Positions 19,157-21,890 of a stretch of 41,102 nucleotides of DNA are shown piece after piece. Position numbers and translations under genes: made by a program. Numbering within the stretch: position 1 is the first letter of the stretch; each line of letters opens with the position of its first letter. Below the pieces are notes generated by a model, which saw only the letters and a program-made list of their open reading frames with translations, ran no database searches and had not been told where the DNA came from. This DNA is from Promethearchaeota archaeon (GTDB lineage Archaea > Asgardarchaeota > Lokiarchaeia > Sigyniarchaeales > SOKP01): assembly GCA_016930515.1 (NCBI GenBank), contig JAFGGO010000021.1, forward strand, positions 1-41,102, written 5' to 3'.

Positions 19157-19684
19157 CTATTTTTTTTCTTCTATTTTTTGCTTTTCGGGCTGTCTTGCAC
19201 GGGAAAGCCTTATCAAGGTGTCTTTCATTGCTTTCACTTCTGCTCTGGTTGATATTTTTGATCCCTGCATGTTTTCCAATAATTCTTTTTCTGATAAACC
19301 CTTCTCAAGGAGTTGGTTAAATTTTTCTACGATATCGTCTCTATAAAAAATGTATTGCTTGTTTAAAAAAACGACTAACCAGGGTTTATTGTCTTGCTTT
19401 TCCGAAAGTTTGAACATTCTTTCTTGTACTTTTTGCATGGGTTTATTTAAATATCGAGCGATTTGTTTATCTTCGATTCGTTCTTGCATTTGTACGAATT
19501 TCATTAAACGGGATTTATAAACCAAGGGAGGAACGAAAGTAATGATATATATAATTATGGTAATAATTGTCAGCCAAATCGCCACCGTGGCGTTATAAAA
19601 AGCAATAATAATTATTACAAGTATTAATATAAGAACCCATTGGCGACCAATAGATTTAAAAAACACGACATATTTTTTTGGCAT
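19157..19684 (-). CDS. Hypothetical membrane protein (two N-terminal TM helices plus a basic, possibly winged-helix-like soluble domain)
   Basis: Hydrophobic WVLILILVIIIIAFY and VAIWLTIITIIIYIITFV, followed by a charged domain. Confidence 0.7.
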   Translation of the reverse strand: MPKKYVVFFKSIGRQWVLILILVIIIIAFYNATVAIWLTIITIIIYIITFVPPLVYKSRLMKFVQMQERIEDKQIARYLNKPMQKVQERMFKLSEKQDNKPWLVVFLNKQYIFYRDDIVEKFNQLLEKGLSEKELLENMQGSKISTRAEVKAMKDTLIRLSRARQPEKQKIEEKK

Positions 19685-19877
19685 TTATTTTCACTCGAAA
19701 AATTTTATGTATGGTTTAAAGATATTATTGATGACATAAAAAAATTATTAGGCTTTTGAAAGTTGGGGCGCAACAAAAACCTTTCTAAAACCATATGACC
19801 TTACCAAGAGAAAAAAGATAAAATTTAATTATTAGTAAATATTTGATTTATCAATTAATACTCGATATTAATTAGAA

Positions 19878-20057
19878 TAGATAAATACGATTCATAGCGT
19901 TTCGCTATAACACTGGAAACATTCCGAACCTGGAAGTTAAACTTATTTGCGTCGTCAATAGTACTGCAATTGCGATTTGTGGGAAATGTCGAACTGTAGA
20001 TTTGTCTACGGTCATAGTAAATAAGGTAAATACCCAGAATTGTTTTGTATTTATCTA
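19878..20057 (+). other. Pre-5S processing stem with bulge-helix-bulge-type motif
   Basis: TAGATAAATACGA (19878-90) pairs with TTGTATTTATCTA (20045-57). AACA (19909-12) pairs with TGTT (20041-44). There is a 3-nt bulge AAT (20038-40), a 4-bp helix CTGG (19913-16) / CCAG (20034-37), and AAA (19917-19). Confidence 0.75.
19919..20039 (+). rRNA. rrf: 5S rRNA, circularly permuted gene (canonical 3' part 19919-20000, TTTG linker 20001-20004, canonical 5' part 20005-20039)
   Basis: 5S hallmarks CATTCCGAAC, GGAAGTTAA and AGTACTG..GCGA..TGGGAAA precede CGGTCATAG..TAAATACCCAG. Helix I is ACTGTAGA (19993-20000) / TCTACGGT (20005-12). Helix II is CTTATTTGC (19942-50) / GTAAATAAG (20017-25). Helix III is CTGG-AA-GT (19930-37) / ACCCAG (20032-37). 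Confidence 0.88.
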
Positions 20058-20061
20058 CGAC

Positions 20062-20091
20062 TGCTTTTGAAAAAGCAAATATTTTTGCTTT
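20062..20091 (+). terminator. Overlapping hairpins downstream of the 5S precursor, putative terminator
   Basis: TGCTTTT-GA-AAAAGCA (20062-77) overlaps AAAGCAAA-TATT-TTTGCTTT (20072-91), with T runs. Confidence 0.4.
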
Positions 20092-20291
20092 AAAATTTTA
20101 AAATGTAAAATCGTACCTTTAATGATTAAAAAAATTTCCCTAACACATTATAAATGATTACTAATTAATGAGGAATTAGCAAAATCTTATTATGATTGAT
20201 TAATTTAATTAATCAAAGATTCTTAAATAAAATTGAAACTTAGAATAGTTTTAAGTCTTTTTCAATCATAAAATAGTATATATTTCTAAAA

Positions 20292-21890
20292 ATGGCTTTT
20301 AAATTAGAAGATGTTAGTGGTATTGGGAAAACAACGGCAGATCGCTTACGATCCGCAGGAATTGACGATGTCAAAAAGTTAGCAGCTATTAGCGTCGACG
20401 ATCTAATCGCAATTAAAGGATTTAGTGAAGCTAAGGCTAATTCTCTCATAGAAAACGCGAAAAAATTAATTGAAAGTTCAGCAACGCAAACTACATCCAA
20501 AGATTTAAAAATCCAGAAAGAAACACCATCTAAACTGCCGATAAAAAAAATAGAAGAAAAACAGGAGAATTCGGTAAAATCCTCAAAATCTGGCGGCGCT
20601 AAACCTCGTACTAAGATTTCATTCAAGGACGCAATTAAAAAACAAGCAGAGTGCAATATTGGTCTTGTAGGCCATGTTGATCACGGGAAGACTACATTAG
20701 TAAAAGCTCTTACTGGAGATTGGACTGACAGACATTCAGAGGAACAGGAAAGAGGAATTTCAATCAAACTAGGATATTCTGACGCTACGATCTTGTATTG
20801 TCCTTCCTGTAATCTATATTTAACAGCATATATGGCTGAAGTTGAAAGACAAAAAGGGCAATCTCGTTCTGCTTGCCCTAAGTGTGGAACAGAACTAGAA
20901 TTTAAACGCAATATTTCTTTCGTTGACGCCCCCGGTCACGAGATCTTGATGGCAACCATGCTTAGTGGTGCATCGCTAATGGATGGAGCTTGCTTATTGA
21001 TTGCCGCCGATGAAGATTGTCCTCAACCACAAACGAGGGAACACTTGGCAGCATTGAATATTGCTGGAATAAAAAGAATTATCATCATACAAAATAAGAT
21101 AGACGCCGTCACCAGGGAAAAAGCGCTTGAGAATCATAAGCAGATTAAAAATTTCGTAAAAGGAACCGTAGCTGAAGGCGCCCCTATCATACCTATCTCT
21201 GCGGTATTTGGAGCAAACCTTAACCTCATCGTAGAAGCTTTCGAAGAGATCATTCCTACACCAATACTTAAAGAAAACGAAGATTTTGAATTTTTAGTTG
21301 CTCGCTCTTTTGACATTAATCGTCCTGGTAAAGCTATAGAAGACCTCCGAGGTGGTGTTATAGGTGGATCCGTTTTAAAAGGAAAAGTCAAGATTGGAGA
21401 TAGGATAGAGATAAAGCCTGGATTACATGTAAATAACGATTATGTTCCGATAAAAACAACTGTAGTAAGTATCAGTCAAGGAAAAAACCAGTTTGAAGAA
21501 GCAAAACCTGGTGGTCTCGTTGGACTTGGAACATTGCTCGATCCCGTCCTTACAAAAGGAGATTCTCTCATTGGACAACTCGTCGGAAAGGAGAATTCGC
21601 TCCCTGATGTCATTTCTGAGATCGAGCTCGATATTCACTTGCTTGATCGCGTATTAGGAACGGAAAATCAAATTAAAATTTATGAATTGAAACATAACGA
21701 AAAGTTATTATTGGTCGTTGGGACGGAAAAAACAGCAGGTACGGTTTCAAAAATCATGAAAAATACTTATGTGCTCTCATTAAACCCTCCAATATGCCCT
21801 GCGGAGAATTTTATTTTTGCCATTTCTCGTATCATAAATAGACGTTATCGCCTCATCGGCTATGGTATTCGTGTTAATGGTCAAAAATAA
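20292..21890 (+). CDS. eif2g: Translation initiation factor aIF-2 gamma with N-terminal helix-hairpin-helix fusion
   Basis: NIGLVGHVDHGKTTL, ERGISIKLGY, CPSC/CPKC zinc knuckle, DAPGHEILMATMLSGA, QNKID, RSFDINRPG, RYRLIGYG. An extra ~115 aa precede the G domain. Confidence 0.95.
   Translation: MAFKLEDVSGIGKTTADRLRSAGIDDVKKLAAISVDDLIAIKGFSEAKANSLIENAKKLIESSATQTTSKDLKIQKETPSKLPIKKIEEKQENSVKSSKSGGAKPRTKISFKDAIKKQAECNIGLVGHVDHGKTTLVKALTGDWTDRHSEEQERGISIKLGYSDATILYCPSCNLYLTAYMAEVERQKGQSRSACPKCGTELEFKRNISFVDAPGHEILMATMLSGASLMDGACLLIAADEDCPQPQTREHLAALNIAGIKRIIIIQNKIDAVTREKALENHKQIKNFVKGTVAEGAPIIPISAVFGANLNLIVEAFEEIIPTPILKENEDFEFLVARSFDINRPGKAIEDLRGGVIGGSVLKGKVKIGDRIEIKPGLHVNNDYVPIKTTVVSISQGKNQFEEAKPGGLVGLGTLLDPVLTKGDSLIGQLVGKENSLPDVISEIELDIHLLDRVLGTENQIKIYELKHNEKLLLVVGTEKTAGTVSKIMKNTYVLSLNPPICPAENFIFAISRIINRRYRLIGYGIRVNGQK

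What the first reader, a model, noticed from the sequence alone, without database searches (positions are those of the whole stretch)
19878..20057. Bulge-helix-bulge motif whose cut sites exactly rebuild 5S loop C (splicing/circularisation signal)
Seen: the leader and trailer pair. There is a 13-bp outer stem (19878-90/20045-57), a side hairpin ATAGCG-TTT-CGCTAT (19894-908), AACA/TGTT, a 3-nt bulge AAT (20038-40), a 4-bp helix CTGG/CCAG, and AAA (19917-19). The inner flanking helix is absent, so this is a relaxed BHB/BHL form. Known: the archaeal tRNA-splicing endonuclease (EndA) cuts after the second nucleotide of each 3-nt bulge, RtcB ligates the ends, and this route circularises pre-16S/23S and permuted RNAs. 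Applying the rule gives cuts at 19918|19919 and 20039|20040. These match the junction needed to restore the 13-nt loop C, which was deduced independently from the 5S structure. The leader CTGG also copies the helix III strand CTGG (19930-33). CCAG must therefore switch partners after splicing, a built-in conformational switch.
Basis: partly seen in the sequence, partly recalled or inferred. Interest (0 to 1): 0.9.

Follow-up and report, generated by a model that had tools for sequence, protein, structure and literature searches.

The report
Splice motif around back-to-front 5S gene
The only 5S ribosomal RNA gene of this Asgard (Lokiarchaeia-type) archaeon is written back part first, and its flanks pair into the cut signal of the archaeal tRNA-splicing enzyme, placed so that cutting and rejoining would rebuild a normal 5S, probably as a closed ring.

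Summary
Every element sits at the stated coordinates: a 13-bp outer stem, a side hairpin, AACA/TGTT, the 4-bp helix CTGG/CCAG and two 3-nt bulges.

The motif brackets a circularly permuted 5S rRNA gene (19919-20039), the only 5S candidate in this 4.0-Mb genome. Applying the EndA cutting rule gives a 121-nt product. Rotated, it aligns without indels to the ordinary linear 5S genes of the sister family.

The main support is comparative. Of 94 distinct related loci, 87 have the same motif at exactly the register a complete 5S requires (chance about 0.002 per register). The pairs covary.

The break position differs between relatives. Most break at GGAA|GUUAAAC. The window and 26 others break in loop C. 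One family breaks in loop B.

Across 151 Asgard genomes, 63 carry the permuted gene and 49 a canonical one, with only one carrying both.

The genome encodes two EndA paralogues. RtcB was not found in this assembly but is present in 23 of 24 family relatives.

Cleavage, ligation and a circular mature RNA remain inferred, and my scan for the spliced junction found nothing. This scan has reported permuted Asgard 5S genes before on other genomes. The loop C breakpoint here is probably of independent origin.

The parts
19820..19835 (+). Probable archaeal promoter box (AAAATTTAATTATTAG, BRE/TATA-like), about 45 nt upstream of the outer stem
   Evidence: Inference. Similar AAAGTTTAAT(A/T) boxes lie upstream of the permuted genes in relatives and of canonical 5S genes in the sister family (sequences printed). 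Not tested.
19878..19890 (+). Outer processing stem, 5' strand
   Evidence: Pairs with 20045-20057: 13 bp, 1 G-U. Relatives have an outer stem of median 13 bp with other sequences, 64 distinct 5' strands.
19894..19908 (+). Leader side hairpin ATAGCG-TTT-CGCTAT, inserted in the 5' strand between the outer stem and h
   Evidence: A (U)AGC-loop-GCUA hairpin occupies the same place in relatives, 81% of cells paired in 20 loop-C-break loci. It is the part Rfam's linear 5S match misreads as helix II.
19909..19912 (+). Outer BHB helix h, 5' strand (AACA)
   Evidence: Pairs with TGTT 20041-44. Relatives mostly have GCG/CGC here, and 3 of 4 pairs show changes on both sides.
19913..19916 (+). Central 4-bp BHB helix H, 5' strand (CTGG)
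   Evidence: Pairs with CCAG 20034-37. Paired in 100% of cells in 20 loop-C-break loci, with covariation at pair 2 across 87 loci.
19917..19919 (+). Leader 3-nt bulge AAA; predicted EndA cut 19918|19919
   Evidence: Geometry read from the sequence. The cut position comes from the known rule and is required for a 13-nt loop C. Cleavage itself is inferred.
19919..20039 (+). Circularly permuted 5S rRNA body (121 nt). Order: rest of loop C, helix III 3' strand, helix II 3' strand, helices V/IV, helix I 3' strand, UUUG cap, helix I 5' strand, loop A, helix II 5' strand, helix III 5' strand
   Evidence: The permuted-5S covariance model R1 scores 109 bits at 19936-20037 and gives the only hit in the genome. 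Rfam's linear reading scores 30.8 bits, below the 38-bit cut-off. Covariation supports helices I, II and IV/V. The rotated sequence aligns colinearly with canonical 5S.
19993..20012 (+). Helix I closed by a UUUG tetraloop (loop at 20001-20004), joining the native 3' and 5' ends
   Evidence: 8 bp, seen. In relatives the loop is 4 nt in 68 of 87 loci: UUCG 27, UUAG 17, UUUG 13, UACG 5. Closing pairs covary.
20034..20037 (+). CCAG: the 3' strand of BHB helix H in the precursor and the 5' strand of helix III in the mature RNA
   Evidence: Competing partners are CTGG 19913-16 (H) and CTGG 19930-33 (helix III). Predicted pair probabilities are about 0.05 and 0.94.
20038..20040 (+). Trailer 3-nt bulge AAT; predicted EndA cut 20039|20040
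   Evidence: Trailer bulges in relatives are AAA, AAT or AAG (helix-III break) and UCA or UCU (loop C break). Cleavage is inferred.
20041..20044 (+). Outer BHB helix h, 3' strand (TGTT), continuous with the outer stem 3' strand
20045..20057 (+). Outer processing stem, 3' strand
20060..20100 (+). T-rich stretch with small hairpins; possible archaeal transcription stop
   Evidence: Read from the sequence only. Inference, not tested.

Best explanation
Window 19878-20057 is the processing stem of a stand-alone, circularly permuted 5S rRNA gene of a Lokiarchaeia-type Asgard archaeon.

Proposed mechanism:
1. Leader and trailer pair into a 13-bp stem, a 4-bp helix h, a 4-bp helix H and two 3-nt bulges on opposite strands. 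This is a relaxed bulge-helix-bulge motif with no inner helix.
2. The tRNA-splicing endonuclease, here apparently a two-subunit EndA, cuts after the second nucleotide of each bulge, at 19918|19919 and 20039|20040.
3. An RtcB-type ligase joins the 2',3'-cyclic phosphate and 5'-OH ends of the excised 121-nt piece. This completes the 13-nt loop C and frees CCAG to form helix III with CTGG 19930-33.
4. Helix I is closed by a UUUG tetraloop, so the product is a covalently closed circle. I think it more likely than not (about 0.55) that this ring is the form in the ribosome, rather than a molecule later reopened at the cap.

Shown here: the anatomy, its conservation and covariation, the exact rebuilding of a 5S sequence, the lack of any other 5S gene found, and the presence of EndA genes.

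Inferred: cleavage, ligation and circularity.
For: Anatomy is at the stated coordinates.

This is the only 5S candidate in the 4.0-Mb, 94%-complete genome.

The permuted order is conserved: 28 of 36 same-family genomes match by DNA and 24 of 25 by model R1. None of 36 family genomes has a canonical 5S over Rfam's cut-off, while 12 of 14 sister-family genomes do.

At the register fixed by 5S completeness, 87 of 94 distinct loci have H of 4 bp plus h of at least 2 bp. The background rate is 0.0017 per register.

H pair 2 covaries (C-G 34, U-A 21, U.G 5) and h pairs change on both sides. The leader strand is therefore a complement, not a duplicated copy.

The same rule rebuilds an intact 5S at four different break positions:
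- GGAA|GU in most family loci.
- GGA|AGU in other Asgard families (L178, L181, L182).
- Loop C in the window and 26 others.
- The 5' side of loop B in L044.

Spliced and rotated sequences align to linear 5S genes with no indel at the joints.

In loop-C-break loci the 'leader' segment holding loop C and the helix III 3' strand is conserved as mature sequence.

The genome has two EndA paralogues with both Pfam domains. One has the Tyr/His/Lys residues and the other lacks the His. RtcB is present in 23 of 24 family relatives.

Precedent: the permuted SRP RNA of Thermoproteus is cut by EndA and circularised (PMC4731332). A 4-nt cap on helix I is tolerated by E. coli ribosomes (PMC7283268).

Caps in relatives are mostly UUCG, UACG or U-N-N-G tetraloops with covarying closing pairs. 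That fits a retained structural cap.
Against: - There is no RNA evidence. My one metagenome scan for the spliced junction returned only canonical 5S genes of other archaea.
- RtcB was not found in this genome's own assembly.
- The thermodynamic model prefers the mature helix III pairing. The motif conformer is 4.1 kcal/mol less stable, with pair probability about 0.05.
- In the mature-like conformer, CTGG 19930-33 / CCAG flanked by AAG and AAT resembles a second cut motif without an outer helix. If used, it would delete loop C.
- The inner helix of a canonical motif is absent.
- A published survey states that archaeal 5S rRNA, unlike 16S and 23S, is not processed through circles (PMC12918454), though it did not examine such genes.
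- An earlier check within this scan priced 'the closed ring is the ribosome's 5S' at only 35/100.
Confidence: 0.8

Rival explanations
1. The transcript is cut and ligated as above, but the ring is only an intermediate. A second nuclease opens the UUUG cap or the linker, so the ribosome receives an ordinary linear 5S with ends at helix I. This is how permuted tRNAs of Cyanidioschyzon mature.
For: It is the route known for permuted tRNA genes (summarised in PMC4267664). Some relatives carry about 30-nt insertions at the cap (L011, L023), which could be removable spacers.
Against: The usual linker is only 4 nt and is a stable UUCG, UACG or U-N-N-G tetraloop with covarying closing pairs. No recognisable processing element is present. 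A capped helix I works in ribosomes (PMC7283268).
Confidence: 0.25
2. The stem only guides endonucleolytic trimming and no ligation follows. The ribosome uses a linear but permuted 5S whose ends lie in loop C, as brown-algal mitochondria use a permuted 5S.
For: Permuted, unligated 5S molecules exist in organelles (PMC4267664). RtcB was not found in this assembly.
Against: - A nick two nucleotides into the most conserved loop is unlikely to be tolerated.
- The cut rule gives neither loss nor gain of a nucleotide at four different break positions in 87 loci. Trimming alone would not need that precision.
- EndA products are the natural substrates of RtcB, which 23 of 24 family relatives encode.
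Confidence: 0.1
3. The gene is an ordinary linear 5S at 19883-20002, as Rfam's weak match suggests. The downstream 5'-half copy and the flanking pairing would then be leftovers of a partial tandem duplication with no function.
For: RF00001 aligns end to end at 30.8 bits, E 3e-4. The leader does look like a decayed 5' half (CAUAGC..AACAC..CUGG).
Against: - The score is below the 38-bit cut-off.
- In the linear reading helix I has 3 mismatches in 9 pairs, helix II is broken and helix III needs two wobbles.
- The downstream 5' half gives perfect helices I (8 bp), II (9 bp) and III, and covaries with its partners across 35 sequences.
- Relatives that break at helix III have no linear reading at all.
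Confidence: 0.02

Closest known systems
Permuted, circular SRP RNA of Thermoproteus tenax / T. uzoniensis (Plagens et al. 2015, PMC4731332)
   Same: An essential structured RNA gene is permuted at the DNA level. The new termini lie next to a functionally important loop. They sit in a motif cut by the tRNA-splicing endonuclease, and ligation gives a functional circle.
   Different: The RNA is different (5S rRNA, a ribosome component) and so is the phylum (Asgard). The break position varies between close relatives, with at least four positions. Nothing here has been shown experimentally.
Circularly permuted tRNA genes (Cyanidioschyzon merolae; Soma et al. 2007, as cited in PMC4267664)
   Same: The 3' part is encoded before the 5' part. 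Leader and trailer form a BHB, and the gene is expressed through a circular RNA.
   Different: There the circle is reopened by the tRNA end-processing enzymes. Here the native ends are sealed by a 4-nt tetraloop with no visible processing signal.
BHB-dependent circularisation of archaeal pre-16S/23S rRNA, permuted 23S of Pyrococcus (PMC7758197) and circular 23S in ribosomes (PMC12918454)
   Same: A processing stem with a BHB, the EndA plus RtcB route, and circular rRNA species, some retained in ribosomes.
   Different: Those genes are colinear with the RNA, so circularisation is not needed to restore the sequence order. The literature explicitly leaves 5S out of this pathway.
Permuted mitochondrial 5S rRNA of brown algae (Valach et al. 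2014, PMC4267664)
   Same: A 5S in which helix I is a closed hairpin and the ends lie elsewhere.
   Different: It is organellar, has no BHB and is not ligated. The product itself stays permuted.
Engineered cp5S in E. coli (Huang et al. 2020, PMC7283268)
   Same: Native 5S ends are joined by a 4-nt connector and the molecule is opened at loop C or D. The resulting ribosomes work.
   Different: It is artificial and fused into 23S rRNA.

Membership tests
5S rRNA (Rfam RF00001) | Score at or above the curated cut-off as a linear gene | tested here: not met
   30.8 bits against a 38-bit cut-off at 19883-20002, and no hit at gathering threshold. This is expected for a permuted gene.
5S rRNA (Rfam RF00001) | Helices I, II, III and IV/V plus loops A, C and E in the right order after rotation, supported by covariation | tested here: met
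   Rotated sequences are colinear with canonical 5S of the sister family, without indels at the joint. 19 of 26 predicted pairs show compensatory changes. Loop A CAUAG, loop C CAUUCCGAAC and AGUA..GGGAA are present.
Archaeal bulge-helix-bulge splicing motif | Two 3-nt bulges on opposite strands separated by a 4-bp helix | tested here: met
   AAA 19917-19 and AAT 20038-40 flank CTGG/CCAG. The same geometry is at the required register in 87 of 94 loci.
Archaeal bulge-helix-bulge splicing motif | Outer flanking helix | tested here: met
   AACA/TGTT, stacked on the 13-bp stem through the 3' strand. Relatives have GCG/CGC and variants, with changes on both sides.
Archaeal bulge-helix-bulge splicing motif | Inner flanking helix (strict hBHBh' form) | tested here: not met
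   No contiguous pairing exists between 19920 onward and the bases before 20034. This is the relaxed form.
Archaeal bulge-helix-bulge splicing motif | Cleavage by EndA after bulge nucleotide 2 and ligation by RtcB | not testable with these tools
   Only indirect evidence is available. EndA genes are present. RtcB is absent from this assembly but present in 23 of 24 family relatives.
BHB-processed circularly permuted RNA genes (permuted tRNA, Thermoproteus SRP RNA) | 3' part encoded upstream of 5' part, with native ends joined by a short linker | tested here: met
BHB-processed circularly permuted RNA genes (permuted tRNA, Thermoproteus SRP RNA) | Leader and trailer form the BHB exactly at the new termini | tested here: met
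BHB-processed circularly permuted RNA genes (permuted tRNA, Thermoproteus SRP RNA) | Circular RNA or junction detected | tested here: inconclusive
   The one metagenome scan for the family's spliced junction gave only canonical 5S genes of other archaea. No reads were available.
Two-subunit (alpha2-beta2-like) EndA with broad substrate range | Two paralogous subunits, one catalytic and one lacking a catalytic residue | tested here: met
   ORFs of 197 aa and 201 aa both carry PF02778 and PF01974. The first has Tyr, His and Lys at the expected motifs and the second has no His there, judged by eye. Quaternary structure and specificity are inferred.

The most novel reading that the evidence does not exclude
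The ribosomes of this Lokiarchaeon, and of roughly 40% of sampled Asgard genomes, carry a covalently closed circular 5S rRNA made by the tRNA-splicing machinery. Because any site that can form the cut motif will serve, the gene's break point moves between helix III, loop C and loop B among close relatives. The loop C break in this window would have arisen independently of the main loop C group.
Probability: 0.45. Interest if true: 0.85.

Novelty: new variant of a known kind. Interest (0 to 1): 0.75.

Why it matters
5S rRNA is regarded as a universally linear, easily recognised gene. Reviews of archaeal rRNA maturation exclude it from the circularisation pathway.

A 5S that can only be assembled by tRNA-splicing enzymes, and that may stay circular in the ribosome, would add an essential substrate for EndA and RtcB. 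It would also explain why standard annotation reports no 5S gene for many genomes of the archaea closest to eukaryotes.

It further offers a natural experiment on how much topological change the ribosome tolerates. This window adds a break placed inside loop C, the most conserved loop, which makes rejoining hard to avoid. Its closest relatives break elsewhere, so the rearrangement is recurrent and recent.

Tried and rejected
- Rfam at gathering thresholds found nothing in the window and ARAGORN found no tRNA.
- I considered Rfam's sub-threshold linear 5S reading and rejected it on helix quality and covariation.
- Unconstrained folding does not give the motif. It had to be imposed and costs 4.1 kcal/mol.
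- My first automatic choice of the 'best' motif per locus, by longest outer helix, often picked chance A+T-rich pairings. I replaced it with a test at the register fixed by 5S completeness.
- A longest-helix search for the outer stem only modestly beats shuffled trailers, median 13 against 9 bp.
- In alignment A2 the outer stems of relatives are not in register with the window's, so the tool's counts for that helix (41% paired) are uninformative.
- The metagenome scan for the spliced junction returned six canonical 5S genes of unrelated archaea and no RNA-derived contig.
- RtcB (PF01139) was not found in the window's own assembly.
- Four literature searches found no archaeal permuted or circular 5S.
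- Earlier notes of this scan say environmental RNA of other Asgard lineages contains the joint. I could not check that.

Full report
**What is at the coordinates.**
- The 13-bp outer stem is 19878-90 with 20045-57 and has one G-U.
- The side hairpin ATAGCG-TTT-CGCTAT is at 19894-908.
- AACA (19909-12) pairs with TGTT (20041-44).
- CTGG (19913-16) pairs with CCAG (20034-37).
- The two 3-nt bulges are AAA (19917-19) and AAT (20038-40).

On the 3' strand the 4-bp helix h runs straight into the outer stem. On the 5' strand the side hairpin is inserted between them (constrained fold).

No ORF of 50 aa or more overlaps the region. It lies between a minus-strand ORF ending at 19684 and a plus-strand ORF starting at 20292.

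**What the motif brackets.**
Rfam finds nothing at curated thresholds. With relaxed thresholds it gives one linear 5S match at 19883-20002 scoring 30.8 bits, below the 38-bit cut-off, with broken helices I, II and III.

Read as a permuted gene, the helices are intact.
- 19919-20000 holds most of loop C, the helix III 3' strand, the helix II 3' strand, helices V/IV and the helix I 3' strand.
- UUUG (20001-04) caps helix I.
- 20005-20039 holds the helix I 5' strand, loop A, the helix II 5' strand and the helix III 5' strand.
- Helix I has 8 bp and helix II has 9 bp, both perfect, and these pairs appear in the minimum-energy fold.

This is the only 5S candidate in the 4.0-Mb, 94%-complete assembly, both by RF00001 and by the permuted model R1 built here, which scores 109 bits.

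**Does the cut rule rebuild a 5S?**
Cutting after the second bulge nucleotide gives 19919-20039, 121 nt. Joined, it reads CCAG-AA|ACAUUCCGAAC-CUGG.

When rotated to start at helix I, it aligns with the linear 5S genes of twelve sister-family genomes with no gap at the joint. Loop C has the same length as theirs. Folded as a circle, it gives the three-armed 5S shape.

**Relatives.**
A DNA search finds the locus in 28 of 36 genomes of the same family, mostly over the stretch that spans the cap. The permuted order is therefore conserved.
- None of the 36 has a canonical 5S over Rfam's cut-off.
- 12 of 14 genomes of the sister family do, several with tandem copies. That family includes one-contig genomes of 4.4 and 6.0 Mb.

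A pattern scan of 185,579 species genomes returned 86 stretches. Nearly all are from MAGs named Promethearchaeota or Promethearchaeia, which places the window in Lokiarchaeia-type Asgard archaea. A few bacterial hits are consistent with chance.

An alignment of 35 cores gives a consensus with helix II, helices IV/V and a tetraloop-capped helix I. 19 of 26 pairs have compensatory changes.

**The motif in relatives.**
I fixed the expected cut sites from 5S completeness alone, then asked whether H (4 bp) and h (at least 2 bp) are present at that register.
- Of 94 distinct archaeal loci, 87 pass: 60 break at CNGGAA|GUUAAAC and 27 break in loop C.
- Six fail narrowly and one is truncated.
- The background frequency of such a motif is 0.0017 per register.

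H pair 2 is C-G in 34 helix-III-break loci, U-A in 21 and U.G in 5. A relic of tandem duplication would make the leader strand identical to the trailer strand, which would give a C/A mismatch where the trailer has CCAG. Instead the leader strand is complementary. The window shows the same logic: the leader has CTGG where a decayed 5' half would have CCAG.

In 20 loop-C-break loci, H is paired in 100% of cells and h in 89%, with changes on both sides in 3 of 4 h pairs.

**Break positions differ.**
- Most family members, including the two congeners with a locus (L007, L008), break between helix III and loop B.
- The window and 26 others break two nucleotides into loop C. There the rule rebuilds UCCCAUCCGAAC, which is exactly the loop of the helix-III-break relatives.
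- L044, from another family of the same order, breaks on the 5' side of loop B.
- Other Asgard families have textbook motifs with 10-14 bp outer helices and break at GGA|AGU.

On a tree of 71 cores (only 102 columns, so weakly resolved) the break type needs about 8 changes, and at least 2 are forced by well-supported branches. The window sits among helix-III-break sequences.

The window is also the only loop-C-break locus with U-A in H, with AACA/TGTT as h, and with a 13-nt loop. I infer an independent origin of its loop C break.

A simple DNA route would be tandem duplication followed by deletion between the short CNGGAA repeats. This yields a continuous dimer from which a new break, or a linear gene, can be carved. 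This route is speculation.

**Phylum-wide picture.**
In an even sample of 151 genomes of the phylum, R1 finds full-length permuted genes in 63 and RF00001 finds canonical genes in 49. The two sets separate by family, and only one genome has both.

**Enzymes.**
The genome has two EndA paralogues of 197 and 201 aa, each with the N-terminal and catalytic Pfam domains. By eye, the first keeps the Tyr, His and Lys residues and the second lacks the His. This is the pattern of catalytic plus structural subunits. From established knowledge, two-subunit EndA enzymes accept relaxed motifs, which would suit a motif without an inner helix. That remains an inference.

RtcB was not found in this assembly but is present in 23 of 24 family relatives, including 4 of 5 congeners. 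The gap is probably an assembly gap.

**Weak points.**
There is no RNA evidence. My single metagenome scan for the family's spliced junction found only canonical 5S genes of other archaea.

The energy model prefers CCAG paired with the mature helix III strand (probability 0.94) over the motif (0.05). The motif conformer is 4.1 kcal/mol higher.

In the mature-like conformer, helix III flanked by AAG and AAT mimics the helix-III-break motif. They follow from the layout, and whether they order the reaction is unknown.

**Ring or not.**
Several observations favour a retained cap and hence a circle.
- The cap is 4 nt in 68 of 87 loci and mostly UUCG, UACG or U-N-N-G.
- Its closing pairs covary.
- No processing signal is visible.
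- E. coli ribosomes work with a 4-nt connector on helix I (PMC7283268).
- The Thermoproteus SRP RNA stays circular (PMC4731332).

Against this, permuted tRNAs are reopened, and a few relatives have about 30-nt insertions at the cap. I put cut-and-rejoin at about 0.8 and the ring as the final form at about 0.55.

**Novelty.**
Four full-text searches found no archaeal permuted or circular 5S. A 2026 paper states that 5S, unlike 16S and 23S, is not processed through circles.

Within this scan the permuted Asgard 5S with its motif has been reported many times on other genomes, as has the 30-nt loop C intron. Some of those reports cite environmental RNA with the joint, which I could not verify.

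What this window adds is the loop C break, its probable independent origin, and the family-wide test of the cut rule at several break positions.

Noticed in passing
L010, L012-L014, L021, L023, L063, L066, L074, L080, L092, L096, L104, L110, L126, L128, L133, L136, L139, L141, L144-L146 (relatives' 5S loci): A roughly 30-nt insert interrupts loop C of many helix-III-break permuted 5S genes. Its form is ..UCCG-AA|G-hairpin-CGGG-AA|C-CCGG, which is itself BHB-shaped, so it looks like a mini-intron inside 5S. Close relatives pair an intron-bearing helix-III-break gene with an intron-free loop-C-break gene (for example L144/L082 and L133/L111).
   Followed up: partly
L011 and L023 (cap of helix I); L015 and L022 (helix IV/V region): About 30-nt insertions at the helix I cap and inside the helix IV/V arm of some permuted 5S genes. 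They could be expansion hairpins or further introns.
   Followed up: no
L044 (another family of the same order): A third break position on the 5' side of loop B: leader ..CGC-CCGA-AA|A-CACCCGAAC, trailer ..UCGG-AA|A-GCG. The same rule rebuilds the 5S sequence.
   Followed up: partly
G044, G055, G053, G051 (sister family): Canonical linear 5S genes occur as tandem copies a few hundred bases apart. This is the kind of array from which permuted genes could arise, or revert.
   Followed up: no
G160: The only sampled genome with both a permuted-model hit (four copies, most at contig ends) and an RF00001 hit just over the cut-off. It may be a tight tandem array.
   Followed up: no
L116, and L063, L067, L073, L076, L122, L134, L137: Lokiarchaeia-type permuted 5S loci sit on contigs of MAGs labelled Nanopelagicaceae bacterium, or Hod-, Hermod-, Thor- or Odinarchaeota. 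This suggests mis-binned contigs or loose submitter labels.
   Followed up: no
G000 whole assembly: No RtcB (PF01139) match in the window's own genome, although nearly all relatives have one. This is probably an assembly gap.
   Followed up: partly
window 20292-21890 (+): A 532-aa ORF lies directly downstream of the 5S unit. Another first-stage note calls it aIF2-gamma with an N-terminal extension. I did not examine it.
   Followed up: no
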